Position numbers and translations under genes: made by a program
Notes under the pieces: generated by a model
Told to the model about the DNA's origin: nothing
Database searches by the model: none
Seen by the model: only the letters and a program-made list of their open reading frames with translations
Virus record (IMG/VR): IMGVR_UViG_3300032132_000001
Coordinates: 298,573-362,572 of that record
Length of the DNA stretch: 64,000 bases
DNA from: a virus
Reading direction: 5' to 3' (one strand)
In this document: piece by piece, positions 18,101 to 59,587 of the stretch
Layout of the letters: the number at the start of each line of letters is the position of its first letter
Numbering within the stretch: position 1 is the first letter of the stretch

Positions 18101-21100
18101 CTACGAAGAGGAAAACGCTCCTACTTCTATCAACAAGGCTTTGGGTAAAGCAAAAGGCGACTTCGACCCGGCGTCGTTCAGCAAAGCAATGAAAGAATGG
18201 GACCGTCTGAAACTGTCCCATGATGTCACTTCCGGGAAGGGAGAGGTAGGTGAATTCCTAAACACCTACATGGCTCAATTCAACAAGCCGATGTCCTACC
18301 AGATCATCCCTCTGGGCGCTGGTTATGTTGCGATTATCGACATCAGAATCAAGAAGCTAAAAGATCTATACCATTATCTTGAGCAGATTCGTACTGGGAA
18401 AGATGATCCGGCAGATAAAGAGTCTGAAGATCTTCCTAGCGGCATAAAAGAGCAAACTGCCGCTGCGAAGGCTAAAGAGGAATTCAGAAAGAAGGCTATT
18501 AAATCTGGCGAAATCGACCCGAACGATCCAGAAGAGAATAGAATCGACTCGGCCGACCTGTTCAACGCCCTTGGATCTCATAAGTATAAGGTAGTTGGAT
18601 CGGCCGCTCGCCGCGCTGACACATGGCAGAAGTACGGCACATTCCAGAAGCTGGTAGAGGCGCAAGAAAAGGTCCGCAAGAAAGTTGGTGACCTATTGGA
18701 CCAACTATATGGCATAGGCCAATGGCACAAAGCTCTAAAAGACCCAGAATTGCATTTGCCGCCGGGGCTGTTCCATGCTACTGGGCCAATTCGACCAGAA
18801 GACCTCACCGACAGAGGTGCTAGCCAGGGTGTGCGAGTAGAGACTGCCCCAGAAGACAAGCTGGTCGGTCTCAACACTATGCAGCAACTACATCGAAAGA
18901 GTGAAGGAAAGGCTCTAAAGGCTGAAGCGAGAAGAGCAGAAGCAGAAGAAGAGATCGCTATACTAAGGAATGCTACTCCAAACAGATTAAAGCAGAGTGG
19001 TGTTCACCTTGGGTGGGATAGTAATATTCCATATGAAAAACTCGCTTTCATGTACCAAGATACTGATTCGCCATTTTATTACAAAACTGTGAGGAACCAG
19101 CTCGCTAAACTATCTCTCCAAGGTAGTGGTGGGTCAGTAGATGAAAGGAATCTTCATAGGCGCTTGAGGAAGCTTGAAGGCCGTGCTAAGCATGCAAGAA
19201 AGATGTCTAAGATCGCTCGGTCTAAAGAGAAAGCTTGGAGGAAGCAACTTCTGTTCCTCGGAGCGCTGGCAGATGAACGCCCTGACCTATCTCCAGAATA
19301 TCTCAAAAGAAGAAGAGTGGAGATTGAGCGCAAAATAACTGAGTACAACAGTGAAAGGCGCGCATTCAACGTGAAAGTTCGTGATGTTCGCGAAGAGATC
19401 AAACAGTACAACTCTGCTAGCTGGCAAGATCTGAACACACGAGATAGGAGCAAGACCAAATCAAAGTCTGGAGGTCTGCTTGCGCCAGATGAAGTTCACC
19501 TAGCGTACGGGTTTGTTGAATATGTTACCAATACTATCAAGAAACTGGAAGGGAGAATCACTGCCGCTAATAACTCTTTGATAGGTGCCAACCAGAAGAG
19601 TACGATCGACGCCAAAAAGAAAGCGATGCTGAAGAATGCCATCAACTATCTGCTGGGAGGGCGCGATTCGTCTGGCGAAGAGATCCCGTTACACACAGTA
19701 ACAGAATATGGCCCGGACCAGAACAAGACGGTAATGTTCAACCCGGTGGTGGAGATGTATGGCTTGCGCCCATATGCCGGTAAGGGCGAGTATATGCCAC
19801 ATATCCCTCACAGGTACATGAGCGAAGAAGAAATAGACAACCGCACAATGTACTCTGCGTTGGATGCTTGCATCGATCAGCTGGCTACGATCGTTTCCGA
19901 TGTCGTACTCTACCTGATGGGTCACGGCAAGCTAATGGTTCGTGGTCATGGGTTTGCCACCGAACGTGGTTGGGCTTTCCTTCTTGCTGGTGTAGTCCAA
20001 CCATCAGCTGGCAAAGCAGGCCCAGGAAAAGCAACCGCCCTACAGAGAATTGGTCGCGACCATCTCTACTCAGTACAACTAGAAACCGAAGCGCGGGCCC
20101 TCTGGAGAGAAGGCGACGTAGACAATATCGAGATCCTATCTAAGCTCTTGAATGCTCACAGATTGAGCCGACCAAAGGGCTTTGAAGATGCGAATCTTCA
20201 ATCATTCCACCTAGCAGAGCATCTTGATAACTTCGTCGCCGATGAAGAAGGCGAAGAAGCTGAAGTAGATCAAGAGGGAATAAGGCAGCTAGCTGGAGAC
20301 GTAAGCTACAGTACAATCAAGGGTGTGATCTCTTCCTACGATAGAGTCCTGAAGAATGCTAATGAAGCTAAGGAAGCTGCGGCTGCCAGAATAGAAGAAG
20401 CACTCGAAGAAAGTGGAGAAACTCTTGAAGGGGATGAATTAGAAGATGCTATCGAAGAAGAGTGGAAGAAAGATGGGTACGGGTCCGCTATTCGATCTCT
20501 TAATTTCTACTCTAGGCTCAACGATGGTTTCAGTGAAGATGAAGCCAAAGAAATGGCAGATCGCGCTGACGGACCGAACAATCCGAGTGTCATTCAAAGG
20601 CGTCTAGAGCAAGCTGGAACGATGGAAGAGGAGCATCTTAGAAGAGTAACTTTCGCTAAGGAAGCTATCAGGCGAGCGGTGGCGGGTGCTGGATCGGTTT
20701 CTCCGCGCCTTCTCCGAAAGATCTACACTTCTGGTACCGGAGTCCTCAAATCGGTACTAGACGATTTCAAGGATGAACAATCAGCTGGCGCGAGCATCGG
20801 CGAAAGACGAGAGAAGATCAGCCATGCGATCGCTATGAATGATACTCGCGCATCTCGGATGGATGGCAATGTAGAGATGATAACTCCAAATATGGAGGCA
20901 GCCCAGGAGGCAGGAGATGAAGCGCTAATCAAGCACTATGCTTCATATATTGAAGCATGGGAAGATCACGCCGTCGAACTGCGAAATGAAATCGCTGAAC
21001 TTCAAGTACAAGATAGAGAGCTTGCTAAAAAGGGAGAAGATCTACCAGGCAAGGAACTCAACATAGATGGAATTAAGCACACGCTCAATTGGCATCGCGC

Positions 21101-23156: not shown

Positions 23157-25285
23157 TGCTCATTTTCACCACCGGAAGGATCAAGAGGGTTCTTAGCGAA
23201 GCGGACATTTCCGTAAAGTCTGGTAGCCAAAGAGGTTCGACCGAACCAGGCTCCCCGACGTCCCTCAGACTAGAAGCAGACCTAATTTTTTCAGGTCAAG
23301 AGTATACACGCCTGAAGCAAGAATTCCAATCAGAGCATGAGTCGGAATTCGATGATATCAGGATGAAGCTTGAGGAAATGCTGGGTCAGCCCTATGGTGA
23401 TCCTCCTCGCTCTCTTTCCAAGACTCAGGTTAGAAATCTGCTGTCGGCGCTAAGAGATGTTCACCAAGGGAGCTACAAAGACTGGCGCAAAAAGTACAAG
23501 GATGAACCCCCGAAAGAGAAGCACTATACGGACCGCCCACGGCGAGGAAAGATCAAGAAAGACAGCGACAGAATAGTATATGAGCTAGATTCTTCTGATC
23601 AATTGCAAGAGATTGTACTATTCCTCAACAAGATGGCAAGTGACCCAGATAGAATCCTGAATCTGCAGAACATGCTGAAGCAAGTATATGGCACTGAAAC
23701 TTATCCTTCAAGCGTCTTCTTCCGACAGCTAGAAGATCAAGTAAACGCAGGAGATCAAGAAGTTGTAGATCAATCGTTCCCAGAGGACGAAATAGAAGCT
23801 TTGTCGATGGGTCAATGGGTACTCCTCAAGTCTCTTGTAAACAGGAGGAGATTTATAAAGTCATTGAAAGTGTTCGATAGACGATACAATGATAGAGATA
23901 AGACAAGCAAAGAATCGCGCTCTGCTCTTCGCAAATATGCAGGTGCGATCCGCGACTTAGCTGGTAGAGTTAGTGCCTCTGTAGTGCCAACTAAGACCGT
24001 CCAATTCAGCATAATACCAGATGCTGAAACTGGACACTTCATCGTGCGGAAGTTCATCAATTCCGGCGGCGAAACAAGTACAATAGACACCACCGAAGGC
24101 CCAAGCGGCCCGATTGTGGCTCGTCACCAAAAAGGTGATCCCAATTGTGCTACTGCGATAGTTAGAGCCCAAGCCTCTACTTACAAAAAGCAAGGGTACG
24201 AAAGAAAGAAGGAAGAATACAGGGAAGATGATGAGGTCCATGAGCTTCTCAAGAAGACTTCCAAACTATTCGGATCGGGTTTCGATCAGTTCGTTGTAGA
24301 CCAACACCAGAAGAAGCTCGCTGACAAAATAAAAGAAGAGTTCGCTCCAATGAGCGAGCCTTGGCAGTTAGTCTTCCTAGGCGAACATGGAGACCAAATC
24401 GGTCGATTCAAGGCTTTGTACGGTAGAGCTGAAGATAGAGTATATGCTATCAAGGCTGAGTCGTCTGTCGCTTTGGGAAACAAGTTCGCAGAGCTACTAG
24501 AGAAAGAGCTAAGAGGACAAGATTTTAGCATAGCCAGATTGGCAGATCCTCTCCCCAACAGCAGACCGAATGGATTTGTATTCCAAACGTCGCTAGATGG
24601 AATTACCGATGTGGCTGCCGGATTAGACAGGCTGGATGATGAAGAACAGCCTGATATCGAAATCTTCCTACCTGGCATCAAGCATATGATTGCCACTGTA
24701 GTGCAAGATATGCTATATGACTACGAAGACACTCATGGGCCAAGCGAAGAACCTATCCCAGAGTATGAAGCTCTCCAGATGGATGATAGGACTAGGAAGA
24801 TATTCAGGAAATGGTTCAGTAAAAGACAAAGACCATTCGCTATCGATCACAATATGATAAAAATCGAAGGTGGCGAGATTGTTGCCCCTATCGGTGCGAA
24901 TCCGCAACCAGAGAAGGAAGTAGATCCGGAACTTGCTAATAATCCGGAAGTGCAAGATCTAATGGCGATCTTGCGTGGAGAAAAGAAGGGCGAGATCCAA
25001 GATTTCGGCCAGTGGGAACTCCACCGGATGTTCAAAGACCTACAAGATGCATCTACAGATCAAGAGGGAAACCCTATCAACTGGGCTAAAGTTGCACAAG
25101 ACTTGGGTCTAAGGAAAAAGACCCGAGATGAGTTAGAGAAAGAAGTCCAGAAGACAATGGACATCGGGAGATCTGGCCCACGACCGGAATATGTATCAAA
25201 GCCTGAGGAAGAACTGGAAGATCTCCCAGAATCTAAGATAATCGATGTGATCGCCGATCACACCCCGGAACATCCATCATGGTAG
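23156..25285 (+). CDS. large acidic hypothetical protein (709 aa)
   Basis: Start overlaps the stop of the giant gene (TAATG); D/E/K-rich. Confidence 0.6.
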   Translation: MLIFTTGRIKRVLSEADISVKSGSQRGSTEPGSPTSLRLEADLIFSGQEYTRLKQEFQSEHESEFDDIRMKLEEMLGQPYGDPPRSLSKTQVRNLLSALRDVHQGSYKDWRKKYKDEPPKEKHYTDRPRRGKIKKDSDRIVYELDSSDQLQEIVLFLNKMASDPDRILNLQNMLKQVYGTETYPSSVFFRQLEDQVNAGDQEVVDQSFPEDEIEALSMGQWVLLKSLVNRRRFIKSLKVFDRRYNDRDKTSKESRSALRKYAGAIRDLAGRVSASVVPTKTVQFSIIPDAETGHFIVRKFINSGGETSTIDTTEGPSGPIVARHQKGDPNCATAIVRAQASTYKKQGYERKKEEYREDDEVHELLKKTSKLFGSGFDQFVVDQHQKKLADKIKEEFAPMSEPWQLVFLGEHGDQIGRFKALYGRAEDRVYAIKAESSVALGNKFAELLEKELRGQDFSIARLADPLPNSRPNGFVFQTSLDGITDVAAGLDRLDDEEQPDIEIFLPGIKHMIATVVQDMLYDYEDTHGPSEEPIPEYEALQMDDRTRKIFRKWFSKRQRPFAIDHNMIKIEGGEIVAPIGANPQPEKEVDPELANNPEVQDLMAILRGEKKGEIQDFGQWELHRMFKDLQDASTDQEGNPINWAKVAQDLGLRKKTRDELEKEVQKTMDIGRSGPRPEYVSKPEEELEDLPESKIIDVIADHTPEHPSW

Positions 25286-33057: not shown

Positions 33058-35844
33058 ATGGCACAGTTCAAGATTCCGGAAAAGTCCAGCCTTACGGACA
33101 AGCAGACTGTTCAAGTCTCTGGTCCGGACGGCGTAGTAACGACCTATCAGTTTGACAGTGAAACCTGCACGCTCTATAGCCAGGCTTCACCTGTAATCAT
33201 TCCGCCTTTCCATGGCCAAACTCACATCGCAGAAGATGCGGTCCCGATTGTCACGACAGACACTCAGGGCCATATGTCCCCATCTGACAAGGCGAAACTA
33301 GATGCTATTACTCAAACTAGGGTTGGCGTTCTCGGCTTTGCAGGTTCTGGCCTTCCTGACGACGGGGGATTTCTTCAAGGTGATATCATCCTTGCGACGG
33401 GCTCTGACCTCCTCAACATCGAAAGAGTAGGGAACGTCGTAAGATTCACTCTGAATACTACACAGCAATTCTGCGGTTGCGAAGAATGCGCCCAGATCTT
33501 CTGGATCCAAGATGAGTCCGATCCAGCTCAGATTAGACCACCATCATGCGCCGGTAAGCTTCCAGGAACGAACGTATACAACGAAATGAAGGTATATCTC
33601 CTACCGGAGAATACCATCCTGGACCCATCTAACCCGGTACCGACACTAAACCAAAAGAGCTTCTTCCCAGCGATGACCTTCACCAGGTTCCCTGGGTTGA
33701 CTCCAGACCTTGCTCAATTCCACCTCGTTCTCCAGCGAAACACCAACACTACCACTAGGGTAGGCTGGAGCATGACACCGGGCACTTCCGGCAAGGTAGA
33801 AACAATCTGGTGGACCGGACTAGATGACGACGGTGAGCAAATCACCTTCGAACTAGAGCCGAACAGCGAATCCAACTTGCTTGGCATGCTGCTCTACAAG
33901 GGTCACAGCCTGACTCGTCAGATGGCGGTGGTTACCAGCTATACCTCCACCATCCTATCAACCAACCAATATCTGTGCCGCTTCTGGGACGTGAATAATG
34001 CCGGCCCGGTAGGTGATGAGTTCACAGCAACCAACGTATGGCAGTACAACAACCCAACCAACTCTGCAACATCGCTAGTCAACCCTCGCACACTCGTTTT
34101 GGACTCCTCTGTCAACCTGCTGCCTGTCGGCACGCTTGTTCAGATTTGGGAGTACCAGATTGGTGAAATCAACGGGGAGCGCCTAGTACGTCGCTTCTTC
34201 AACCTAGAACCACAACTAAGCCCAGAGACGATCTGGACCCTTGGCGGTGCGATCAAGTTTGGAGATCTGTTGACAGCTCGTCGTGAAGTAAGCCCAATGG
34301 ACCCAAGTGAGAAGGTTGCTTTCGAAGAGGAAGTGAGCGATATCCGTCTCATCGAGCGTTCAGAATGGGGTATCACCGGTTTTGAGGATCCGCTCCTATT
34401 GAGCGACGATGGTGAAGGTACGGACACCACGGTTGGTGTTCTCCAAACGGACGCCCTGACCGCGTTCAGTCTGGTAAAGGATACCGATTTCGCGGTTCCC
34501 AACCTCACTCTCACCGGAAACGGTCCTACAGGTGGTCCAATTGCTGGAGCGCTAGTAGGACGGACTTTGGTTTTCTCATCTGGTGCACATATCGGTGAAC
34601 AATTCGAGATCCTATTCAACTCGGAAGTTGATTATGTGATCTTCGGAGAAGCGCCTGACCTGGTTATTGGCGATACTTTCTTCGTGATCTCGGAAGTCCC
34701 AACGAGTGAACCGTCTGGTATCCCGATCAACAACCAGTTCGTTGCAAACATCGACCCGGATCTTCCGGGGTTGAGGGTGGAGACGTCAGACCCGTCTTGC
34801 GACAGTGAGCGTCCGGTCTACATCTGGCACAGAGGTAACCACAAGAACCTCTACGTGAAAGCGCTGGTAGGAATGCCATCGTCAAGCACGTTCCCTCCGA
34901 TGGACATACTACTAAGAGCGCCTGGTGACAGCTACGATGACACTTACCTAAATGTGATCCGCCGTGGTATTCTTACTACTGGTCGGTTTGCAGGAAGGAA
35001 CTACATCATCGTGAAGGGCGTCCACTGGAAGGATCTGCCGCCTGAGGGCACCCTGCGGATTCTGACAGGTCTTGCAAGGAATGAAATCTGGACTTACTTC
35101 GATAAAGTTGCATTCTACCTCGCTGATGACGATGCTGTCCAGTTGATTGGTGATGCACTGGTCCCCTTCTTATTCGACGAAGACTTCGAAGCGGGAACGG
35201 CTGCTCCTGACATCACCCAGGGTCTTGTAACTACCCCGGGCAGTACTACTGTGGCAGAGCTTCTTCACGAGGACTACAACGCGGCAGCGCTCCGCTTGGA
35301 GTTCTCAGTGAACGACAACAGCGAAGGTGAGAGCGTCCAGCTCCAGGTGCGGGGTGGTCTATTGGATATGGCCGAGCCTTATGAGTTCGACAGATCCGTA
35401 GATCCGGTTGATGAGTACGTTAGAGGTTTCCAACCAGGGAACTTCGCAGTAAGTGCGCTGATGACCCAGCAAGGGTTCATCGACATTGGCACTGAAACCC
35501 CGGAAGCAGAACCGGTCGGATTCAAGGTGTACAGAGGTGGATTCTCGGCGGGAACTGCCGAAGAACCATCCGAGTTCTGGAACACCCTAGAGATCATGTA
35601 TCGGGACGATCAGCTTTGGGTATGGTGGAATAACCTCTTGGTACCACCAGATCCGACGCTCTCAGCACAACTGCCAACACCAGTTGCTGTCACAACGCCG
35701 TATTTCCAGATCCAGTCGCCAATCTCGCTGGGCAAGGTGGTCCTAAGGCTGTGGCCTGGTACCACGTTCCGTGAGATGGAAATCCGCGATCAAGCTCTGG
35801 CCTTCAACGAGTTCGTCCACGGCCAGCTGGAATTGTCCACCTAA
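33058..35844 (+). CDS. large structural protein, probable tail-fibre/receptor-binding protein (928 aa)
   Basis: N-terminal region TDTQGHMSPSDKAKLDAITQ matches the GxMSxxDKxKLDxI motif that recurs in N-terminal parts of phage tail-fibre proteins; the rest is Thr/Gly/Asn-rich, beta-type composition; AAGGGA SD. Confidence 0.5.
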   Translation: MAQFKIPEKSSLTDKQTVQVSGPDGVVTTYQFDSETCTLYSQASPVIIPPFHGQTHIAEDAVPIVTTDTQGHMSPSDKAKLDAITQTRVGVLGFAGSGLPDDGGFLQGDIILATGSDLLNIERVGNVVRFTLNTTQQFCGCEECAQIFWIQDESDPAQIRPPSCAGKLPGTNVYNEMKVYLLPENTILDPSNPVPTLNQKSFFPAMTFTRFPGLTPDLAQFHLVLQRNTNTTTRVGWSMTPGTSGKVETIWWTGLDDDGEQITFELEPNSESNLLGMLLYKGHSLTRQMAVVTSYTSTILSTNQYLCRFWDVNNAGPVGDEFTATNVWQYNNPTNSATSLVNPRTLVLDSSVNLLPVGTLVQIWEYQIGEINGERLVRRFFNLEPQLSPETIWTLGGAIKFGDLLTARREVSPMDPSEKVAFEEEVSDIRLIERSEWGITGFEDPLLLSDDGEGTDTTVGVLQTDALTAFSLVKDTDFAVPNLTLTGNGPTGGPIAGALVGRTLVFSSGAHIGEQFEILFNSEVDYVIFGEAPDLVIGDTFFVISEVPTSEPSGIPINNQFVANIDPDLPGLRVETSDPSCDSERPVYIWHRGNHKNLYVKALVGMPSSSTFPPMDILLRAPGDSYDDTYLNVIRRGILTTGRFAGRNYIIVKGVHWKDLPPEGTLRILTGLARNEIWTYFDKVAFYLADDDAVQLIGDALVPFLFDEDFEAGTAAPDITQGLVTTPGSTTVAELLHEDYNAAALRLEFSVNDNSEGESVQLQVRGGLLDMAEPYEFDRSVDPVDEYVRGFQPGNFAVSALMTQQGFIDIGTETPEAEPVGFKVYRGGFSAGTAEEPSEFWNTLEIMYRDDQLWVWWNNLLVPPDPTLSAQLPTPVAVTTPYFQIQSPISLGKVVLRLWPGTTFREMEIRDQALAFNEFVHGQLELST

Positions 35845-35902: not shown

Positions 35903-35927
35903 GGATCACGTGATCCTAGGCTTTTTT
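35903..35927 (+). terminator. rho-independent terminator candidate after the 928-aa gene
   Basis: GGATCACGTGATCC palindrome (GGATC stem, ACGT loop) followed by TAGGCTTTTTTACT; then the strong SD GAGGAGG before ATG 35945. Confidence 0.45.
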
Positions 35928-35944
35928 ACTATGAGGAGGGCGAC

Positions 35945-36625
35945 ATGCCTATCATCATCGAAATCCGTGCCGGCGAAGGCGGCAAGGACTCCAAGCTTTT
36001 CATCCACGATCTAGCGTCAGCATATATCAAGTATGCTAACAACCTAGGTCTCAAATCTGACCTGATCTATACCTCGGAGAGCCAAGTATCTCTGAAGGTA
36101 AACGGAGACGCTGAACAGCACTTCCAGCACGAATCTGGTAAGCACTGTGTCCAGCGCGTGCCCCCGACTGAGAATAAGGGGCGCTCTCACACCTCCACGA
36201 TCACGGTAGCAGTCCTCCCGATCTTAGAGCACGTCCATGTAGACGTACCAGATAGGGACATCGAGATAAAGACGCAAGGTGGTTCTGGGCCAGGCGGTCA
36301 ACATCAGAACAAGACTGATTCTGCTGTTCGCGCCACCCACAAGCCGACCAACATCCGAGTCTTTATCAACGGGAAGGATCAACACTCCAATCGCCGGAAG
36401 GCGATCCAAATACTCAAATCCAGGATTGCTGCTCTAGAGCAGCAAAAGGTGGACGAAGAGCATAATGGAGAGCGGTTAGGTCAGATCGGTTTCGGAGGTC
36501 GCAGTAACAAGATTAGGACTTACAACTTCATAAAGAGTAGAGTTGTAGACCACCGACTGAAGACTAAGACTACACAGATCAAGAAAGTAATGAAGGGAAG
36601 GTTTGACCTGATACTGCAAACATAA
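35945..36625 (+). CDS. prfH: PrfH-like class-I peptide chain release factor of RF1 type, lacking domain 1 (226 aa)
   Basis: Aligns to RF1 domains 2-4: EIRAGEGG, CVQRVPPTENKGRSHTSTITVAVLP (RF1 RVQRVPATESQGRIHTSAxTVAV; the PxT tripeptide is PPT), GGSGPGGQHQNKTDSAVRATH (GGQ motif) and RSNKIRTYNFIKSRVVDHR (RTYNFPQGRVTDHR). About 110 N-terminal residues (domain 1) are absent, which is the architecture of RF-H. Confidence 0.75.
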   Translation: MPIIIEIRAGEGGKDSKLFIHDLASAYIKYANNLGLKSDLIYTSESQVSLKVNGDAEQHFQHESGKHCVQRVPPTENKGRSHTSTITVAVLPILEHVHVDVPDRDIEIKTQGGSGPGGQHQNKTDSAVRATHKPTNIRVFINGKDQHSNRRKAIQILKSRIAALEQQKVDEEHNGERLGQIGFGGRSNKIRTYNFIKSRVVDHRLKTKTTQIKKVMKGRFDLILQT

Positions 36626-36631
36626 AGTAGC

Positions 36632-37147
36632 ATGCGACTACTTACACTGAGTGAAGATCAGGGCGCCTACAAGATTGATGGTGCCCGGACGCTCCCCGAC
36701 CGGAAGAAGATCCAGAAGCTGGACAAAGCATTGTACGGCCGCCAGGGTTTCCGTCCTAAGATCATTCACACTGCAATTATGGCAGTAGATCGCGGCCAGG
36801 TTGTGGGCTATGTTGTGCTGAAGCCAAATAGTACCACTCTTTACTGGCTGCGATCTGGTATACACCCAGATTACGAAGATTCCAACCTGGCCAGAGAGCT
36901 ATGGGCATATATCCAAAATATCATGCCTCCGCTTGGGTTCAAAGAGATCACTGCTAGAACATCAGACGAGAATAAGAGCGCCCTATTTAGTAAGATCTTG
37001 GGTGAGCCTGTTGGAAACATCCAGTTCAAGCACAAGAAGGTAGACAAGTTCAGGGCATGCTTGGAGAAGCAGGAAGAAATGCCCGCCACCGAGCAACGGG
37101 CACAAAAGAGGACAGCCTCACGGGCAGGAGCACGATACTCATCATGA
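36632..37147 (+). CDS. hypothetical protein (171 aa)
   Basis: ORF immediately after prfH-like; faint acyl-CoA N-acyltransferase-like pattern (QVVGYVVL...ELWAYI), not secure. Confidence 0.35.
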   Translation: MRLLTLSEDQGAYKIDGARTLPDRKKIQKLDKALYGRQGFRPKIIHTAIMAVDRGQVVGYVVLKPNSTTLYWLRSGIHPDYEDSNLARELWAYIQNIMPPLGFKEITARTSDENKSALFSKILGEPVGNIQFKHKKVDKFRACLEKQEEMPATEQRAQKRTASRAGARYSS

Positions 37148-37635: not shown

Positions 37636-37677
37636 TGTCGTAGTATTTTGACACTAAGTCCTAAAGAGGAGGCCCGT

Positions 37678-38502
37678 ATGAAAGAGGTCGATCTAGTACT
37701 TAGTGGTAGCTCAACGAAATATCCTTGTCATGTAGGGTTTATCAAAGGGATTCAAGAGCTAGAATTTGACGTCCGTCGTTTAGCACTAAATTCTGGTGGG
37801 TCGATGATCGGCGGTTTTTATGCTGCTGGGATGTCGATGGACGAAATGATGGATATGACGTACCGCACTGATATATGCGGTTTCCTAAATAAGGGATTCT
37901 TAGCCATTAGGCGGCTTAGTAATCATGGCTATCTAAGTAACGGCTGGAGATTCTACCGATTCCTCAAAAAGAAGACGGGGAAGAAAAAGCTCCGCGACAT
38001 CGATATTCCAATCTTCATTATGGCATCTAATTTCTCCAAATATGAACTTCACGTTTTCACCCAAGAGACAGATCCGGACGTCCTCCTGGCAGATGCAATC
38101 TATATGAGTTGTACAATGCCCGGAGCGTTCATGCCTATCGTTCGTGATGGGGACTCCTACCGAGATGGTGGGATCCACAAAGACTTCCCATGGGATATCT
38201 GGACCGATTGCCCTAGGACTAGGATTGGCCACCTGATCGCCTTCTCTCATAAAATGATTGTAGACCAGCGCAGTTGGTCAGGGTTTATGGAGTTAGCCGC
38301 TTACGGGGCTAATGTTTCCTTTAAGAACGTAAAGGAATCTCTGGATAAGGGACCTAAAGAGCCTGATGGCTATATTGTAGAGAGCTACGGCATGTGTCTG
38401 CCGGCATTCCGTCTGGCCATAAATAAAGACCAGAGGATGGCAATGATCCAGGAAGGGTATCACAATACCATGTCCAAACTTTCTGACATTGACGTAAAGT
38501 AG
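37678..38502 (+). CDS. patatin-like phospholipase
   Basis: Start at the ATG with a strong SD (AGAGGAGG). MKEVDLVLSGSSTKYPCHVGFIKG (oxyanion/Gly-rich), NSGGSMIGG (GxSxG nucleophile) and YRDGGI (catalytic DGG). Confidence 0.6.
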   Translation: MKEVDLVLSGSSTKYPCHVGFIKGIQELEFDVRRLALNSGGSMIGGFYAAGMSMDEMMDMTYRTDICGFLNKGFLAIRRLSNHGYLSNGWRFYRFLKKKTGKKKLRDIDIPIFIMASNFSKYELHVFTQETDPDVLLADAIYMSCTMPGAFMPIVRDGDSYRDGGIHKDFPWDIWTDCPRTRIGHLIAFSHKMIVDQRSWSGFMELAAYGANVSFKNVKESLDKGPKEPDGYIVESYGMCLPAFRLAINKDQRMAMIQEGYHNTMSKLSDIDVK

Positions 38503-43012: not shown

Positions 43013-45256
43013 ATGGCCAATCTTCCAACTGCTCCCTTCGACGGTCAGATATTTATAGATGCATTCCGTGTGAAGTGGCAGTTCGATGGTGATTCCCACT
43101 GCTGGCGTCGCATCGGAGTGGAGCCAGATATCCCGGTAGCTACTCAGGCAATGGAAGGATTACTATCCGCTCAGCTCCAGCAAGTCCTAAATGGCATTCC
43201 GCCGAAGGGTGGCCACTTTGGGATCGTCGCTCGACCGCTGCCAACCCTTAATACTCAAAAGAAAGTCCTGTTCCGGGACGCAGTGAAGATCTCATTCACG
43301 ACTGCTGCCGGCTCATCTGTCCGATCTAATAATGCATTCGAAGTAGACCAAATGAAGCCGAGCGAGAATCGCAATCGGCTTCTCATCTTCACCTCTGGCC
43401 CTCTCAATGGTGAAGTATATCTAATCTTCGATAACACCGACCGCGATTATCTCCTACATGGTAATGCTAGTGGTTCGCGGCCGGGAGATCGGTTCGACAT
43501 TGTAGAACTAGATTCGTTCAACCCAAGTGGTACAATCTCAGGTGAGATCGAGCTTGTAAGTGAGTCTATCGACATCACTTGTGTTGATACAAATGGCGAT
43601 CCGGTAGATCTAGTCAACGGTAAGCAGTGCTTTTTCTGCGAGACGAGTGATGAAGAAGAATCTCTGCCGGGTTTTGATTTCCGCGTGTCGGAGAACTTCA
43701 TCCAGCAGTTCTGTGCGGTTATTCCAGGTTGTGAGGGGCCGAGAGGGGACACAGGCGGCACGGGCGACGACGGTACACCTGGAACTGGAGATGGGCCGCA
43801 AGGGGAACAGGGTGAGGCCGGGTTGGACGCTCCAGCAGATCCGGCTGAGTTTACCGGTATCAAGGTCGTCGATATTGCCGATATCTTCGATACTGCCGTC
43901 GTCAGCATGGAGCTTGACGCCACCAATAATAAACTGAACATCATCAAAGCCAAGATCAAGACGCCCGATGTAGACAGCCCAGCAGACCAGCTGATTACTA
44001 CCCCGATCGACAGAACCCTCAATTTCGTAGATGATGCTTTCGGCTACGAGCTGCTCTTCCCTTCCCTCGACCCTATTGGTGAGGGAGATGTGGCTCTTGC
44101 ATACTTCCCCCTCGGTAAAGGCCCGGCGATTACTGATGGTATCGTCACCGGAAACGCAACCCAAATTGGCAAGACCCAACTGTCGGTGATGCTCAATCGG
44201 ATTATAGCTTTCTACCGTGAGAAGTTAGAAGAGCTATCAGATGAGTACGACTTACAGTTGAAAGAGGTGATCGAAGAGAAGGACACCGCTGCTCGCACAA
44301 TCTTAGCTGATCTGGCGCGAGAACTTGCAGAATGTGAGTGGTCTACTCCCCTCCAATTCTGCCTGGGTATCCAACCAAACTGCTTCAACCCAAATGAGAA
44401 CTTGGGCAGTTTCCCCTTCCCTCTAGCCGAGGTATTGGGTGGGCCGCTTTTCAAGGACGCAACTGCGACCGATATGGGGTTCCTCCAGATTCGCCCTGGT
44501 CAGCAGCTTCCGATCCCATCCCCGAAAGATACACCCACCGCTACACTACAGACAGACACCGCCTATCTGATCCAATACTTAGATGGCACATTCCAAACTG
44601 ATAGTGGGTTCGCTGTTGGTGACACCACCGGGAATGGCACCAAGCTGGTTATTACAGCTTCGGCAGATTCGGGCGATCAGACAATCGACTTCCCAGTACC
44701 AACCGGGAGCTTCAACGTAAACTCGGAAGATTCTGTGATCGAGGCGTACAAAGCGTCAGAGATCCAAGATATGAGCGTTTGGGTACAGTTCCCGCTTGAA
44801 TGTCCAATCTCTACCGCGACAATCACTCTCACATCGGAAGTTGGGGAGGATATTACTGCGACCGGAGTGATCAACATCAGATTGCTTCAGATCAGTCGTA
44901 AGCCAGTAGAGTCGTCTGGTCAAGAATCTCTGACGGGCGGGCCAGCTGGAGAGATCACTATCCAAATTCTCACTCCCCCTGTGGAGTGTGGCAACTTCTT
45001 CATTGAAGTTGCCGGGGATGGAACCGTCTTTGGTGGTGGTGAGAGTGTCCAAGGGGCACAAATATTAACTGAGAATGGCGCCAATATCCCTGGAAACGTA
45101 AACCCAAACAGCGCTTCTAACGGATTCCTTCAAGTTGTAGATTTCGGCCAATTGGACATCGGCGCAGCCGGCGCTGCTGTGATCAGCATAAATATAGGTG
45201 GTGGGCCGGTATCGTTCGTCGATGCATCACCAATCACAATAGGCACTGAACCATAA
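43013..45256 (+). CDS. fibre-like protein with a short collagen-like G-X-Y run (747 aa), paralog 1
   Basis: GPRGDTGGTGDDGTPGTGDGPQGEQGEAG is a run of G-X-Y triplets; N-terminus PFDGQIFIDAFRVKWQFDGDSHCWRRIGVE parallels the N-terminus of 45256-48927. Confidence 0.6.
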   Translation: MANLPTAPFDGQIFIDAFRVKWQFDGDSHCWRRIGVEPDIPVATQAMEGLLSAQLQQVLNGIPPKGGHFGIVARPLPTLNTQKKVLFRDAVKISFTTAAGSSVRSNNAFEVDQMKPSENRNRLLIFTSGPLNGEVYLIFDNTDRDYLLHGNASGSRPGDRFDIVELDSFNPSGTISGEIELVSESIDITCVDTNGDPVDLVNGKQCFFCETSDEEESLPGFDFRVSENFIQQFCAVIPGCEGPRGDTGGTGDDGTPGTGDGPQGEQGEAGLDAPADPAEFTGIKVVDIADIFDTAVVSMELDATNNKLNIIKAKIKTPDVDSPADQLITTPIDRTLNFVDDAFGYELLFPSLDPIGEGDVALAYFPLGKGPAITDGIVTGNATQIGKTQLSVMLNRIIAFYREKLEELSDEYDLQLKEVIEEKDTAARTILADLARELAECEWSTPLQFCLGIQPNCFNPNENLGSFPFPLAEVLGGPLFKDATATDMGFLQIRPGQQLPIPSPKDTPTATLQTDTAYLIQYLDGTFQTDSGFAVGDTTGNGTKLVITASADSGDQTIDFPVPTGSFNVNSEDSVIEAYKASEIQDMSVWVQFPLECPISTATITLTSEVGEDITATGVINIRLLQISRKPVESSGQESLTGGPAGEITIQILTPPVECGNFFIEVAGDGTVFGGGESVQGAQILTENGANIPGNVNPNSASNGFLQVVDFGQLDIGAAGAAVISINIGGGPVSFVDASPITIGTEP

Positions 45257-48200
45257 TGGCAACTCTTACGTTCCCGTCAGATCCACAGGATGGAATGATA
45301 TTCGAGGCTGCACCTGGTCTCTTCTTCCAATACAATGCTGGTAGTAACTGCTGGGTGCGCATCGACGGTGTAGAATCCCTGGGCCTTGCCACACCGATTA
45401 CTGATGGCCTTATGGCCCCCGAGGATCTCCAGAAGCTAAACGATCTGCTAATCCCACCACCACAAAGCACCTTGAAAGGTGAGGATTGTGGCATTGTTTT
45501 CAACCAGGGCAAGATCAGACTAACATCAACAGACAAATCAGTAGACATTGACCACGCTCTAGAAGTGCTGACCAAGATAGACGGCGTGACGATCAGTGAT
45601 GAGCTTCCTTGGAAGATTCATCAAAATACAGCTGGGTACAACTTCAACCTTAACCTGTTGCAATTCATCGAGCGGCTTGAGGAAGAAAGCGGACTAACCA
45701 AGATCCAGCTGAAGGGAAAGGACGGCCGGAAGGGAGCGCAGGGCGAAGATGGTATTGATATGCTCGACACCGGCCCAGTCGGTGAACCGGGAGAAGATGG
45801 CGCACCTTCCATCTTTGGTGGTACGCTCCTACCAGAAGTCTTAGACGTCGATGTTCCAAACGACCTAAAGAACCGTGCCATAGTCGATGTCCAGACAGAA
45901 GAAAGCGACGACGGCAATTTCCTAGTCATCACACGAGCTAACATCGGTGACCCAAGCTCATGCATTGAGCTTCTAGATGCCCAACCTTTTATTAGCCCAT
46001 GGCTCCTAGTAATCGATGAGAATGAGCCAACCCTGGTGCGGAAACTGGCCCAGTTGGACGACTGTACTCTCCCCTGTGTAATATGTAACACATCACTGCA
46101 CCATCTTTACATCCAGCCGCTGATCAATGCGATCAACAACAGGTACGTTGAGCTTGCTATAAAACTCCGGAAAGAGAAAGAGCGCCTATTCGTCGTCTGG
46201 ATGAACGCTCTCATTTCTCTGTTCAACGAACAGAAGGCCAGCCTATGCTGCGCTCTTGAAAACTGTACTACCAGAAAACGAAACACAGAAGACCGTCGTT
46301 ACATCGAACGCCAACGAATCCAAGCGTCTCACTCTAACCACAACCTCATTATCGATGGGGACGAGGATAGGGTAACAGTAGACATGAACGTTGGCCGAGA
46401 TTGCCCAGGCCCAGAGCCACCGGACTGTGAGATCATCAATGATTGTGATCAGGTCACAAATCCAGATGGCGGTCAACTAGAGAGGATTGCTGGAGATGGC
46501 GATACTCCATGGATCTATAGGTCATACCAAAGCGGAGCGCCAGCGGACTATTTCCAGCCGGGCTTCTCTGAGGCTGGATTCTCAGTAGGTGTCAGTCCGT
46601 TTGGGTCGGTGAACTTTGGAGGTAGAGTCTCACAAATTAGGGCTTCCCCATTCACGCCTGGTGGTCCTATTAGATCTTCGTTCGTTTACACAGCCGACTT
46701 GGTGATTAGGTATCGGTTCACGCTGTCGGGGATTGACGACGATGTAAGAATGATCCTAAACTGGAGCCATGTAGACGATAGCATGCATCTTTTCCTAAAT
46801 GGACAAGCTGTCATGCAGCAGGCTCAAGAGATCTTCCCCAACGGCGGGAATGTAGACTTCACCCAGGGTGCTGGTGGAGCGGCGAACTATGTAGAAGGTC
46901 GTGGGGCTGTAAGCCATACGGAGTCGATCCCTTCCGGATTGTTCGTTTCCGGCGAGAACCTTTTGGTGATTCGCGCAAGGGACACGCTTGGGCAACACGC
47001 GATTCTTGAAGGTCTAACCCTACAAATCGCCGGCCCGCAGAAGTCCTGCACGATGGCCGTAAGATCTGATACATTCCAGAAGATTGTGCTTTCCAAATCG
47101 ATAGGAGATCCAACCTCATTCGAATTGGCTAGCCCCGGCGATGGCTTATTCCTCACCGATGAGATCGAGAAGCTGACAGTCAGCGTGAAGTCCACCCAAG
47201 AAGATATTGATTTCAAATTGGCCTTGAGAGACACAGATGGTCTCACTTATATCTGGCCGGCTCAGGGCAATACAGTATTGGATGAATATGAGACGCTCGA
47301 ATTTCCATTGTCTGATATGTCAGGGATCACGGCTGGCGGTCGCGGCACGCTAGTAAAGCCTTCGACTTCAATAGCAATCAACCAACTACTGATCGAACTG
47401 AACAATCAGAGCGATGTCGAACCAACTATATTCTTCGACACAATCGACATTCATCAAGTAGATGGTACGATTACATCTCTCGCGGCGTTTGGCTGGGCTG
47501 ATACTCTAGCGCTCAAGCAAGCGTGGAACACCGAGTGCCGTGCAGATCCTATTGGCGCGTTGTGCGACAATGGGATCGTATCTATCACCCTCGACCCTAG
47601 ATTCCACACCAGTTCTGATCGGGGGATAAAGCTCAACATACCAAAGGGCAACTATAAAGCGGTAGTAGCTGGCTGCTGCGCTGAGGTGGCCCCTGGTGCG
47701 TTTAGTGGTAGATTCGGCATTTCCTCATCCCCTGGTGAATCTCCAATTGAGACCACCGCTCCTAATTTGGGTGTCGGCACGTTTGCTCAAGCTCAAGACA
47801 AGTATCTTGGCTTGGCGGTGCCGTTCACACATGAGGGCGGAGAAATCACCACTTGGGTCATCGATGCTAATGCAGTAGCGACCGACAATGCTGGGTCGAT
47901 AACCCTCGATATCTTCCCAACGCTATGTGATGAGCTAGTAGATCCAACTGCTGGTGGTGAAGATTCGATCCTAGTATATGCCAACACCATCGCTGCTGCG
48001 AACCTCATTGGATTCATCACAGCGTTCGGTGGCACACTCCCGGCGATTGACAACTACAACCGGGAAGGCGGCTCTGATGATGCGGGTCCTTCGATCATGG
48101 AAGGACCCGAAGCAGCCAACGGTGAATCTCACATCTGGTTCTACAACAGTGTAGACGGACTATCAGCGTTCATCGTGAACGGTGGGCCAGATTCCAACTC

Positions 48201-48927
48201 CGCTGCGATGGACTTTAGAACAGTTGGGAATAACGCTGCCCAGTCGTTGATCGTAGCGGATGACCCAGGCGAAGTCTCGACCGAGCTTGCCACAGTAAGT
48301 GAAAGCGCCTTCAAGGCTGAATGGGAGTATGGCCCCGATGGTGACGGTGCAGTGGTCGGCTACTTCGAAGAACAAAATTGGGTATTCGAAGTCAGCCCGC
48401 TGAACCTCGGCAATGCTTCCAGGCTGGTCGCCAAGTCCAGCAATGGCACAGATGTAGAGCTTGCAATATCCACAGACGGCTTGGGCACTACACTGGCAGC
48501 CGACAAGATCTTGTTCACTAGGATCGCCAATGGCTGCCTAATGCACTATAAACAGGTAGAGTGGCTAGAAAGAGGTCACCGGACTGGAGCTTCGTGCAGC
48601 GCGGTGGTCACAGTAGAAGGAGTTACCTATATCGTGGTGAAGCGGTCGATTGGCATCGACAAGACTTGCGGTGGTGGCGAGACCCTCTCCAACCAATGCG
48701 TGTCCACCTTCCTTGCTACGGGCGCAGGTCACCCGGCCATCGCTTGGCCGACTTTCAACAAGAGAGAATTCCTCGGCCTTCCAACATCTGGATTCCAAGG
48801 GTTCGTGGAAGACGAAGATCTTTCGAGCCAGATCCTTGCGAAACTCCAGACGGGGGATTTCGAAGAGCCAGTGAACGGGGACCCAGTATCTAACATCCCG
48901 TTCGTAATCTTCCCATCGGGACTGTAA
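45256..48927 (+). CDS. large fibre-like protein with short collagen-like G-X-Y runs (1223 aa), paralog 2
   Basis: TAATG overlap with the previous gene; N-terminus DPQDGMIFEAAPGLFFQYNAGSNCWVRIDGVE; GKDGRKGAQGEDGID and GPVGEPGEDGAPS triplet runs. Confidence 0.6.
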   Translation: MATLTFPSDPQDGMIFEAAPGLFFQYNAGSNCWVRIDGVESLGLATPITDGLMAPEDLQKLNDLLIPPPQSTLKGEDCGIVFNQGKIRLTSTDKSVDIDHALEVLTKIDGVTISDELPWKIHQNTAGYNFNLNLLQFIERLEEESGLTKIQLKGKDGRKGAQGEDGIDMLDTGPVGEPGEDGAPSIFGGTLLPEVLDVDVPNDLKNRAIVDVQTEESDDGNFLVITRANIGDPSSCIELLDAQPFISPWLLVIDENEPTLVRKLAQLDDCTLPCVICNTSLHHLYIQPLINAINNRYVELAIKLRKEKERLFVVWMNALISLFNEQKASLCCALENCTTRKRNTEDRRYIERQRIQASHSNHNLIIDGDEDRVTVDMNVGRDCPGPEPPDCEIINDCDQVTNPDGGQLERIAGDGDTPWIYRSYQSGAPADYFQPGFSEAGFSVGVSPFGSVNFGGRVSQIRASPFTPGGPIRSSFVYTADLVIRYRFTLSGIDDDVRMILNWSHVDDSMHLFLNGQAVMQQAQEIFPNGGNVDFTQGAGGAANYVEGRGAVSHTESIPSGLFVSGENLLVIRARDTLGQHAILEGLTLQIAGPQKSCTMAVRSDTFQKIVLSKSIGDPTSFELASPGDGLFLTDEIEKLTVSVKSTQEDIDFKLALRDTDGLTYIWPAQGNTVLDEYETLEFPLSDMSGITAGGRGTLVKPSTSIAINQLLIELNNQSDVEPTIFFDTIDIHQVDGTITSLAAFGWADTLALKQAWNTECRADPIGALCDNGIVSITLDPRFHTSSDRGIKLNIPKGNYKAVVAGCCAEVAPGAFSGRFGISSSPGESPIETTAPNLGVGTFAQAQDKYLGLAVPFTHEGGEITTWVIDANAVATDNAGSITLDIFPTLCDELVDPTAGGEDSILVYANTIAAANLIGFITAFGGTLPAIDNYNREGGSDDAGPSIMEGPEAANGESHIWFYNSVDGLSAFIVNGGPDSNSAAMDFRTVGNNAAQSLIVADDPGEVSTELATVSESAFKAEWEYGPDGDGAVVGYFEEQNWVFEVSPLNLGNASRLVAKSSNGTDVELAISTDGLGTTLAADKILFTRIANGCLMHYKQVEWLERGHRTGASCSAVVTVEGVTYIVVKRSIGIDKTCGGGETLSNQCVSTFLATGAGHPAIAWPTFNKREFLGLPTSGFQGFVEDEDLSSQILAKLQTGDFEEPVNGDPVSNIPFVIFPSGL

Positions 48928-57735: not shown

Positions 57736-57736
<1 letters not shown>
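56933..57736 (+). CDS. patatin-like phospholipase (second copy), probable TTG start
   Basis: LDLVFSGSGARFPAFVGAL, GSSGGALVGG (GxSxG) and LYDGGI (DGG). An in-frame TTG at 56933 gives (M)KQLDLVFSGSG, mirroring MKEVDLVLSGSS of the first copy, and cuts the 71-nt overlap of the track's ATG form (56876) to 14 nt. Confidence 0.55.

Positions 57737-59587
<1,851 letters not shown>

What the first reader, a model, noticed from the sequence alone, without database searches (positions are those of the whole stretch)
35945..36625. Domain-1-less RF1-type release factor (PrfH-like) with GGQ and a PPT codon-recognition tripeptide, with no RtcB partner in the window
The 226-aa protein aligns to RF1 domains 2, 3 and 4. 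It retains GGQ (GGSGPGGQHQNKTDSAVRATH) and an RF1-like recognition loop in which the PxT tripeptide is PPT, but it lacks the roughly 110-aa N-terminal domain 1. That architecture matches RF-H (prfH), which in bacteria is paired with RtcB2 to rescue ribosomes whose 16S rRNA decoding centre has been cleaved. Here it sits alone behind a terminator and a strong GAGGAGG SD, in a genome that also carries def, groES-like and clpP-like genes. A mobile-element-encoded PrfH could counter ribotoxin-type host defences, or could act in termination control. All three stop codons are used as stops in this window, so it is not a recoding helper here.
Basis: partly seen in the sequence, partly recalled or inferred. 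Interest (0 to 1): 0.7.

Follow-up and report, generated by a model that had tools for sequence, protein, structure and literature searches.

The report
Phage-type RF1 release factor lacking domain 1
This gene encodes a compact version of the bacterial stop-codon reader RF1 that lacks its first domain.

Summary
The 226-aa ORF at 35945-36625 is real and intact. It covers RF1 domains 2-4 and starts exactly at the domain-2 strand. Profiles put it with RF1 (251 bits), not RF2 (157) or PrfH (67, cut-off 167). A confident model (pLDDT 92.5) superposes on ribosome-bound RF1 (TM 0.93); PrfH gives 0.67. It keeps GGQ, the switch loop and the UAA/UAG-reading residues.

The truncation is not an artefact. 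The 120 best database hits are all short, and 395 relatives lie in IMG/VR, many on 100-570 kb contigs. None of 92 related loci has a domain-1 or RtcB match. The short proteins form one clade with its own signature (Asp at RF1 position 119, PPT), absent from 90 full-length RF1s.

The window uses the standard code, so this is not a recoding helper here, although 48 of 83 viral relatives carry in-frame TGA.

Best reading: an active UAA/UAG release factor, probably RF3-independent, that supplements host termination during infection.

The PrfH/RtcB interpretation is not supported. It is a new variant of a known kind, of moderate interest. Some relatives need UGA read-through although a neighbouring gene stops at TGA; this is unexplained.

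The parts
35903..35926 (+). Terminator-like hairpin (GGATCACGTGATCC) followed by a T-run, after the upstream 928-aa gene
   Evidence: consensus scan; 5 terminator-like sites found in the region against 1.5 expected from shuffles; sequence. Function is inferred only.
35933..35939 (+). Shine-Dalgarno sequence GAGGAGG, 5 nt upstream of the ATG
   Evidence: read directly from the sequence.
35945..36625 (+). CDS for a 226-aa domain-1-less RF1-type class-I release factor (RF1 domains 2, 3 and 4)
   Evidence: Identical protein P0001 lies on a 397,419-bp contig.
35978..35989 (+). Tip of helix alpha-5, GGKD (residues 12-15), equivalent to T. thermophilus RF1 G116-G117-E118-E119, the element that reads U1 of the stop codon. 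The family-specific Asp replaces Glu119.
   Evidence: Alignment to 4v4r_AY. Asp is invariant in the 102 of 120 homologues that cover the position and in 83 of 83 viral loci. Glu is present in all 90 full-length RF1s.
36152..36193 (+). Decoding loop QRVPPTENKGRSHT (residues 70-83), equivalent to RF1 Q181, P184-x-T186, I192 (Ser here), H193 and T194
   Evidence: Q181, R182, T194 and S195 are invariant in 120 homologues. PPT occurs in 111 of 120.
36293..36301 (+). Catalytic GGQ motif (residues 117-119)
   Evidence: Invariant in 120 of 120 homologues and 83 of 83 viral loci.
36470..36526 (+). Switch-loop region ERLGQIGFGGRSNKIRTYN (residues 176-194), equivalent to RF1 residues about 288-306
   Evidence: R298, K301, R303 and N306 are invariant or nearly so; T304 and Y305 are in at least 118 of 120.

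Best explanation
The gene encodes a functional class-I peptide release factor of RF1 specificity. It belongs to a distinct clade, associated with huge phages, that has permanently lost domain 1. Proposed mechanism: the protein enters the ribosomal A site and reads UAA and UAG with the RF1 decoding head (helix alpha-5 tip, PxT loop, Gln181/His193/Thr194 equivalents). It rearranges its switch loop and places GGQ in the peptidyl-transferase centre to hydrolyse peptidyl-tRNA. Domain 1 is the part of RF1 that contacts RF3 and the L11/L7-L12 stalk region. Without it, the factor should work without RF3-assisted recycling and independently of host-specific contacts there. In the infected cell it would add UAA/UAG termination capacity; 52 of the 74 predicted genes in this window end in TAA or TAG. 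In TGA-recoded relatives the same factor fits the known code-change role of phage RF1. Shown here: family membership, architecture, conservation, fold, absence of domain 1 and of RtcB, and the standard code of the window. Inferred: catalytic activity, UAA/UAG specificity, RF3 independence and the physiological role.
For: - Profiles: RF1 251 and 241 bits, RF2 157, PrfH 67, ArfB 22.5. Pfam finds the C-terminal half of PCRF plus RF-1.
- Residue-level alignment to T. thermophilus RF1 shows G116, Q181, P184, T186, E187, R191, H193, T194, GGQ and the switch loop retained.
- The AF2 model has pLDDT 92.5. It superposes on ribosome-bound, open-form RF1 at TM 0.93 and rmsd 2.0 A over 232 columns.
- Purifying selection is evident. 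The 120 best hits in a 5.8-billion-protein database are all 178-285 aa, with invariant GGQ, Q181, R182, T194, S195, K301, R303 and N306.
- 395 relatives lie in IMG/VR, and all 83 viral loci analysed (80 from IMG/VR, 3 from GenBank huge phages) have a stop within 60 codons upstream.
- No domain-1 HMM hit occurs in 92 loci, against a 71 of 71 positive control.
- In an NJ tree, 41 short sequences including this one form a bipartition with no full-length RF1. The Asp119 + PPT signature is exclusive to them.
- Literature: deleting domain 1 does not change codon specificity or abolish in vitro release, but it removes the RF3 interaction (PMC1586002, citing Mora et al. 2003).
- Literature: RF1 is a recognised component of TGA-recoded phages.
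- The gene has its own SD and start, and its GC content matches its surroundings.
Against: - No biochemical data exist for any member of this clade.
- The decoding region carries clade-specific changes of unknown effect: Glu119 to Asp, Pro in the middle of PxT, and Ile192 to Ser here (Arg or Lys in most close relatives). Specificity could therefore differ from RF1.
- The scores fall below the NCBIfam RF1 cut-offs (251 against 400).
- The window phage uses all three stops, so there is no obvious need for an extra RF1 and the physiological benefit is conjecture.
- The window holds no viral hallmark gene. Its contig was not found in IMG/VR. The phage assignment therefore rests on the relatives and on gene content.
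- Only 64 kb of a 397-kb contig was inspected.
Confidence: 0.65

Rival explanations
1. PrfH-like rescue factor. The protein would recognise ribosomes whose 16S rRNA decoding centre has been cleaved by a ribotoxin and release the peptide, possibly working with an RtcB encoded elsewhere in the 397-kb genome.
For: It shares the domain-1-less architecture with PrfH. There is a weak PrfH profile match at 67 bits. Only 64 kb of the genome was examined, so a distant rtcB cannot be excluded.
Against: The PrfH profile score is far below its cut-off of 166.65 and far below the RF1 score. Solved PrfH chains match only the GGQ domain. The fold match to PrfH is TM 0.67 with 24% identity, against 0.93 with 44% for RF1. 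The RF1 stop-codon reading residues are kept, whereas PrfH has a conserved altered decoding region. No RtcB occurs in the window or within about 10 kb of the gene in 92 related loci, whereas prfH is invariably adjacent to rtcB.
Confidence: 0.04
2. Release factor with altered specificity or an antagonistic role. The clade-specific changes in the decoding head (Asp119, PPT, Arg/Lys/Ser192, His or Gln193) would retune codon or context recognition. The factor might then bias termination in favour of the phage. For example, it could terminate at in-frame UAG of TAG-recoded competitors or counter amber suppressors. Its synthesis might also be gated by UGA read-through, as the in-frame TGAs in relatives suggest.
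For: The signature is invariant or nearly so in the clade and absent from 90 full-length RF1s. H193 is Gln in 48 of 120 close homologues. 48 of 83 viral relatives carry an in-frame TGA within codons 36-51 of their own gene. In at least five such loci the neighbouring gene uses TGA as a true stop. The gene is present in a standard-code genome that has no evident need for it.
Against: The residues known to discriminate RF1 codons (T186, Q181, T194) are conserved. Glu119 contacts U1 through its backbone (own knowledge of the RF1-ribosome structures), so Asp may be neutral. The window gene has no in-frame stop. There is no direct evidence for antagonism.
Confidence: 0.18
3. Evolutionary leftover. 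The gene was inherited from a TGA-recoded ancestor in which it was part of the code-change machinery. In this standard-code phage it would be dispensable or nearly neutral.
For: Many relatives show signs of TGA recoding: in-frame TGA at the conserved Trp position in 34 loci, and TGA-specific ORF fusions in L083 and L007. Phages of one clade can differ in genetic code.
Against: The ORF is intact, with a strong SD and all catalytic and decoding residues conserved. Its composition matches the genome. Several of the closest relatives also lack in-frame stops. Such conservation at 50-58% identity is not expected for a dispensable gene.
Confidence: 0.1
4. Artefact or pseudogene. The ORF would be a 5'-truncated remnant of a bacterial prfA captured by the element, or an assembly or frameshift error.
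For: The best profile match is canonical RF1, and the scores fall below the curated full-length cut-offs.
Against: The identical protein is recorded in three source collections and was read on three contigs. More than 100 homologues share the same start point. No domain-1 remnant exists in any frame. The gene has its own SD and ATG. A clade-specific signature is present.
Confidence: 0.02

Closest known systems
Bacterial RF1 (prfA; TIGR00019 / PRK00591)
   Same: Domains 2, 3 and 4 share about 40-47% identity. Also shared are GGQ, the PxT tripeptide, the Q181/H193/T194 equivalents, the switch loop, and the fold of the ribosome-bound open form.
   Different: It has no domain 1, the coiled-coil domain that contacts RF3 and the L11 stalk. 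It has Asp instead of the Glu119 found in all 90 full-length RF1s examined, Pro as the middle residue of PxT, and Ser (Arg or Lys in most close relatives) instead of Ile or Val at 192. It scores below the curated RF1 cut-offs. It is encoded on huge-phage-like contigs, not on bacterial chromosomes.
Phage-encoded RF1 of TGA-recoded (code 4) phages, e.g. Jade phages (Borges et al. preprint 10.1101/2021.08.26.457843; PMC10746230)
   Same: It is an RF1-type factor carried by a phage. Many relatives of the window protein lie in loci with in-frame TGA and next to tRNA arrays, which fits a translation or code-change module.
   Different: The window genome uses TGA as a stop (22 of 74 genes), so the code-change rationale does not apply. 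The papers I could search or read do not mention loss of domain 1. I did not examine the Jade RF1 sequences themselves.
PrfH / RF-H (TIGR03072), partner of RtcB2
   Same: It is a class-I RF homologue without domain 1 that retains GGQ.
   Different: PrfH has a conserved altered decoding region, is always next to rtcB, and acts on damaged ribosomes (PDB titles). This protein has an RF1 decoding head, no RtcB, a 67-bit PrfH profile score, and TM 0.67 to PrfH.
Engineered domain-1-deleted E. coli RF1 (Mora et al. 2003, as cited in PMC1586002)
   Same: The architecture is the same. The literature reports retained codon specificity and in vitro release, function in vivo, and loss of RF3 stimulation. 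This is the best functional analogy.
   Different: That protein is a laboratory construct. This one is a natural, widespread lineage with additional changes in the decoding loop.
Lak megaphage RF2
   Same: It is a class-I release factor encoded by a huge phage.
   Different: Lak-A1 RF2 keeps a full N-terminal domain 1 and an SPY (RF2-type) tripeptide. Loss of domain 1 is therefore specific to the phage RF1-type clade.

Membership tests
RF1 (prfA equivalog, TIGR00019 / NF001859) | Whole-protein score above the curated cut-off (423.25 / 400 bits) | tested here: not met
   It scores 240.8 and 251 bits. The shortfall corresponds to the missing profile positions 1-105 or 1-113.
RF1 (prfA equivalog, TIGR00019 / NF001859) | N-terminal domain 1 (coiled coil that interacts with RF3 and the L11 stalk) | tested here: not met
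   The match starts at profile position 106 or 114. No domain-1 HMM hit occurs in the window, against a 71 of 71 positive control.
RF1 (prfA equivalog, TIGR00019 / NF001859) | GGQ catalytic motif in domain 3 | tested here: met
   GGQ lies at residues 117-119 and is invariant in the family.
RF1 (prfA equivalog, TIGR00019 / NF001859) | PxT tripeptide plus the third-base readers (Q181, H193, T194) and the alpha-5 tip GG | tested here: met
   PPT, Q70, H82, T83 and G12-G13 align to the RF1 positions. Glu119 is replaced by Asp.
RF1 (prfA equivalog, TIGR00019 / NF001859) | Peptide release specific for UAA and UAG on the ribosome | not testable with these tools
   This needs an in vitro release assay or in vivo complementation.
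PrfH / RF-H (TIGR03072) | Profile score above the cut-off of 166.65 bits | tested here: not met
   It scores 67.3 bits.
PrfH / RF-H (TIGR03072) | Absence of domain 1 | tested here: met
   This feature is shared but not discriminating.
PrfH / RF-H (TIGR03072) | Conserved non-RF1/RF2 decoding region (SxY-type tripeptide) | tested here: not met
   An RF1-type PPT and its flanking residues are present. The PrfH feature is taken from PMC1586002.
PrfH / RF-H (TIGR03072) | Operon with RtcB (rtcB immediately upstream) | tested here: not met
   phmmer with E. coli RtcB finds no hit at E <= 1 in the window or in 92 related loci. The upstream gene is a 928-aa ORFan. The rest of the 397-kb contig was not available.
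PrfH / RF-H (TIGR03072) | Structural similarity to solved PrfH | tested here: not met
   9mor_A ranks 50th, with TM 0.67 and 24% identity. The 18 best hits, all RF1 or mtRF1a, have TM 0.87-0.93.
RF2 (prfB, TIGR00020) | SPF/SPY tripeptide and a score above 370 bits | tested here: not met
   It scores 156.8 bits and its tripeptide is PPT.
ArfB / ICT1-type rescue factors (NF006718) | GGQ domain alone with a C-terminal basic tail and no codon-recognition domain | tested here: not met
   It scores 22.5 bits against a cut-off of 100, over 33 residues only. Domains 2 and 4 are present.
Phage code-change RF1 (TGA-recoded phages) | Host genome (the phage) uses TGA as a sense codon | tested here: not met
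   The window has about 95% coding density under code 11. 22 of 74 genes end in TGA, including a GDP-mannose dehydratase whose Pfam match reaches the end of the profile. 48 of 83 viral relatives carry an in-frame TGA.
Short phage RF1 clade (defined here) | Starts at the domain-2 strand (I-I-x-E-I), has Asp at RF1 position 119, a PPT tripeptide and GGQ, and is about 220-250 aa long | tested here: met
   The window protein lies inside the bipartition of 41 short sequences with no full-length RF1.

The most novel reading that the evidence does not exclude
The domain-1-less RF1 clade may be a retuned termination device of huge phages, not just a smaller RF1. It would be independent of RF3 and the L11 stalk, and it has a clade-specific decoding head (Asp119, PPT, and Arg/Lys/Ser at 192 in the window's subgroup). 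In many relatives its synthesis would be gated by read-through of an in-frame UGA, even though neighbouring genes still stop at UGA. That would be a cross-regulatory mirror of prfB autoregulation: phage RF1 is made when RF2 activity is low or UGA is being suppressed. The standard-code window gene would be the ungated form of this device.
Probability: 0.15. Interest if true: 0.75.

Novelty: new variant of a known kind. Interest (0 to 1): 0.5.

Why it matters
Phage-encoded release factors have been treated as ordinary RF1 or RF2 copies that support stop-codon recoding. This analysis shows that the RF1-type copies in huge phages form their own lineage. The lineage has discarded the RF3/L11-interacting domain, has a fixed signature in the stop-codon reading head, and also occurs in a standard-code genome.

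That has three consequences:
- It is a natural experiment on what domain 1 is for.
- It supplies a set of minimal RF1 scaffolds for genetic-code engineering, where RF1 competition with suppressor tRNAs matters.
- Through the in-frame UGA in relatives, it points to a possible new regulatory link between RF2 activity and RF1 supply.

It also corrects an annotation risk. These proteins fall below the curated RF1 cut-offs and could be mislabelled as PrfH because both lack domain 1.

Tried and rejected
- PrfH membership: rejected on profile, fold, motif and operon grounds.
- Split gene or frameshift hiding domain 1: rejected (upstream frame).
- A conserved partner gene next to the short RF1: none is shared across loci, and the window shares no neighbour family with relatives. 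The GNAT gene 7 nt downstream is not conserved.
- Close relatives in GenBank phages by DNA: no match.
- A single-sequence scan of IMG/VR: found nothing. The alignment-based scan was needed.
- Viral hallmark genes in the window: none found in 30 ORFs scanned with PHROGs. tblastn of the 1223-aa ORFan against phages found nothing.
- Genetic-code inference from ORF coverage and from internal-stop density: too noisy, because GC-rich loci give spurious long ORFs. I replaced these with an ORF-fusion test and with orthologue-end comparison, which still leave the relatives' code unresolved.
- The published Borges et al. paper could not be retrieved. I used the preprint instead.

Full report
**Observation**

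The ORF at 35945-36625 (+) is real. It runs from ATG to TAA, encodes 226 aa, and is preceded by GAGGAGG 5 nt upstream and by a hairpin plus T-run that follows the previous gene. It contains GGQ (residues 117-119) and a PPT tripeptide (residues 73-75).

NCBIfam places it with RF1: PRK00591 at 251 bits matching profile positions 106-336 of 347, and TIGR00019 at 241 bits. RF2 scores 157, PrfH 67.3 (cut-off 166.65) and ArfB 22.5. Pfam sees only the C-terminal half of PCRF plus the RF-1 domain. So domain 1, about 105-113 residues, is missing.

The nearest upstream in-frame stop is 19 codons away with no start codon in between. A domain-1 HMM built from 89 full-length RF1s finds nothing in any frame of the window (best E = 0.095), yet it detects 71 of 71 bacterial RF1 loci. 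The truncation is therefore neither a frameshift nor a split gene.

**What it is**

Aligned to T. thermophilus RF1 (4v4r), the protein keeps the elements that read UAA and UAG and trigger catalysis. These are the alpha-5 tip Gly-Gly, Gln181, Pro184, Thr186, Glu187, Arg191, His193, Thr194, GGQ and the switch loop (RSxKIRTYN). The differences are Glu119 to Asp, Pro as the middle residue of PxT, and Ile192 to Ser.

An AlphaFold model built with a 36-sequence family alignment is confident (pLDDT 92.5). It superposes on ribosome-bound, open-form RF1 at TM 0.93 and rmsd 2.0 A with 44% identity. The 18 best hits are all RF1 or mtRF1a. PrfH (9mor_A) ranks 50th with TM 0.67 and 24% identity. By sequence, solved PrfH chains match only the GGQ domain.

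**A family, not an accident**

- The 120 best hits among 5.8 billion proteins are all 178-285 aa. The identical protein sits on a 397-kb contig, and other members sit on contigs of 100-520 kb.
- Across these 120, GGQ, Q181, R182, T194, S195, K301, R303 and N306 are invariant. Asp119 is invariant wherever the position is covered. PPT occurs in 111 of 120. Position 192 is Arg or Lys in 98 and Ser in 6, including the window protein.
- An alignment-based scan of IMG/VR found 395 relatives. I analysed 83 viral loci: the best 80 from IMG/VR plus three from GenBank huge phages. All have an in-frame stop within 60 codons upstream, all have GGQ and Asp119, and 73 have PPT. None has a domain-1 HMM hit, even when TGA is read as sense.
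- The homologues in the 595-, 636-, 642- and 735-kb huge phages LR756511, LR756504, LR756502 and LR756501 start at the same point.
- An exhaustive search of 1.84 billion cluster representatives shows short proteins at the top (254-180 bits), then ordinary 350-360-aa RF1s from about 178 bits down.
- In an NJ tree of these, 41 short sequences including the window protein form a bipartition with no full-length RF1. All 90 full-length RF1s have Glu119, a non-proline x in PxT, and Ile or Val at 192. The other short sequences carry the canonical signature and look like gene fragments.
All 9 are on MAG contigs of 7-68 kb binned as Pirellulaceae, Obscuribacterales or Chloracidobacterium. The other 71 are canonical full-length RF1.
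- Lak megaphage RF2, by contrast, keeps a full domain 1 and an SPY tripeptide.

**Context in the window**

The window is about 95% coding under the standard code. TAA, TGA and TAG end 30, 22 and 22 predicted genes, including genes whose Pfam matches run to the end of the profile. There is no tRNA in the 64 kb.

Neighbours are a 928-aa ORFan upstream, then downstream a weak GNAT 7 nt away and a patatin-like protein. Elsewhere in the window there are a sigma-70 factor, NUDIX, ClpP, peptide deformylase, SOD, adenosine deaminase, APS kinase, sugar-nucleotide enzymes, and giant ORFans of 2662 and 1223 aa.

No capsid, terminase or tail family was detected, and the contig is not in IMG/VR. "Huge phage" is therefore an inference from contig size, gene content and the relatives' contexts.

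No gene family is shared between the window's neighbourhood and those of relatives, so there is no conserved partner. RtcB is absent from the window and from 92 related loci. GC content around the gene matches the surroundings.

**Mechanism**

The best-supported reading is an active, stop-codon-dependent RF1-type release factor that works without domain 1.

According to PMC1586002 (citing Mora et al. 2003), deleting domain 1 from E. coli RF1 leaves codon specificity and in vitro release intact and the truncated RF1 still functions in vivo. It removes the stimulation of nucleotide exchange on RF3. The phage factor should therefore terminate at UAA and UAG without RF3-assisted recycling and without host-specific contacts at the L11 stalk.

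RF1 has previously been reported in TGA-recoded phages as part of a code-change module, and many relatives fit that picture. In this standard-code genome the likely role is to supplement UAA/UAG termination capacity during infection. Activity, specificity, RF3 independence and the physiological benefit are all inferred, not shown.

**Rivals**

- The PrfH-like rescue reading fails four of five defining features (profile, decoding motif, RtcB operon, fold).
- A pseudogene or artefact is excluded by conservation.
- A leftover from a recoded ancestor is possible but fits poorly with the intact motifs.
- A retuned or antagonistic factor cannot be excluded, because the clade-specific decoding-head changes have unknown effects.

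**Seen in relatives and unexplained**

48 of 83 viral loci have in-frame TGA in the RF gene, always within codons 36-51 (one further TGA, at codon 200 in L041, lies in a locus where only query residues 3-145 matched). 34 have it at the position of the conserved Trp ("G-W") of canonical RF1. At codon 51, L031, L032 and L053 have TAG where five other loci have TGA. L012 has TAG at codon 35.

The genes often sit in or beside tRNA arrays of up to 41 tRNAs, and no UCA anticodon was detected among them.

In at least five of these loci the conserved downstream gene ends in TGA exactly where orthologues end in TAA. In addition, 100 kb of the 735-kb phage shows no TGA-specific excess of ORF fusions. 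So either recoding is partial or temporal, or UGA read-through gates synthesis of the phage RF1. This does not concern the window gene directly, but it bears on what the family is for.

**Novelty**

Phage RF1 and RF2 genes are known, and a domain-1-less class-I RF is known as PrfH. I found no description of a natural domain-1-less RF1 clade in phages. Burroughs and Aravind's survey of RF evolution does not mention phages, and the recoding preprint does not mention truncation. The literature search was limited to the held library.

I rate it a new variant of a known kind, of moderate interest.

Noticed in passing
L033-L084 (IMG/VR loci); also L002, L003 and L168 (GenBank huge phages): 48 of 83 viral relatives have in-frame TGA in the short-RF1 gene, confined to codons 36-51 apart from one at codon 200 in the partially matched L041. 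34 have it right after Gly, at the conserved Trp position of canonical RF1. The protein sequence is conserved on both sides of the stop.
   Followed up: partly
L047, L051, L068, L073, L082 compared with L061, L074, L084, L055, L033; L172 and L173 (LR756501): In loci whose RF gene needs UGA read-through, the conserved downstream gene of about 170 aa ends in TGA exactly where orthologues end in TAA. Also, 100 kb of the 735-kb phage shows no TGA-specific ORF-fusion excess. TGA therefore still acts as a stop there, which suggests partial or temporal recoding, or a regulatory read-through site.
   Followed up: partly
L031, L032, L053 (codons 43 and 51); L012 (codon 35): Some short-RF1 genes carry an in-frame TAG, in three loci together with a TGA. 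This is odd for a factor expected to read UAG. The TAG at codon 51 replaces a TGA found at the same site in five other loci.
   Followed up: no
L005, L024, L033, L039, L043, L050, L061, L070, L076, L083 and others: In 46 of 83 related loci the short-RF1 gene lies within about 10 kb of tRNA genes, often large arrays of up to 41 tRNAs in 20 kb. No tRNA with a UCA anticodon was detected. tRNA(CUA) occurs in L013, L035, L048 and L065. The window itself has no tRNA.
   Followed up: partly
L054, L056-L058, L060, L066; L036: A subgroup of viral homologues has PKN (or PSN) in place of the PPT tripeptide. In five of the six PKN loci, 173 codons upstream would be open if TGA were read as sense. This could be a variant with different specificity or architecture.
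   Followed up: no
P0121 (477 aa), P0128 (481 aa): Two cluster representatives about twice the normal length match the query in two separate stretches. They could be tandem or fused release-factor modules.
   Followed up: no
L086-L094 (MAG contigs): The only short Asp119-type genes seen among the best 80 loci from 185,579 species genomes lie on 7-68 kb contigs binned as Pirellulaceae (5), Obscuribacterales (3) and Chloracidobacterium (1). They may be mis-binned phage contigs, or a hint at the hosts.
   Followed up: partly
L167 (Prevotella phage Lak-A1, 368 kb region): Lak megaphage RF2 retains a full coiled-coil domain 1 and an SPY tripeptide, unlike the phage RF1-type clade.
   Followed up: yes
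L169 (LR745208, 485-kb phage): The RF1 homologue matches in two pieces. The frame fills with stops after about 36 codons, which suggests a frameshift, an intron or a decayed copy.
   Followed up: no
window 36632-37147: A GNAT-family acetyltransferase (weak Pfam match, no NCBIfam match) starts 7 nt after the RF stop codon and may be co-translated with it. It is not conserved next to the RF gene in relatives.
   Followed up: partly
window 11481-12131: A peptide deformylase homologue carries a C-terminal SEC-C/SWIM-like metal-binding motif (residues about 187-215). This is an unusual fusion.
   Followed up: no
window 15168-23156, 45256-48927, 33058-35844, 43013-45256, 23156-25285: Giant ORFs of 2662, 1223, 928, 747 and 709 aa have no Pfam or PHROG match. 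The 1223-aa ORF also has no tblastn match in 50,697 phage records.
   Followed up: partly
window 37648-38502 and 56876-57736; 5644-6351; 12411-13043; 58566-59144: The window holds two patatin-like phospholipases, a sigma-70 factor, ClpP and an adenylyl-sulfate kinase. With SOD, adenosine deaminase, NUDIX and several sugar-nucleotide and glycosyltransferase genes, this is an auxiliary-gene-rich region with no viral hallmark gene.
   Followed up: partly
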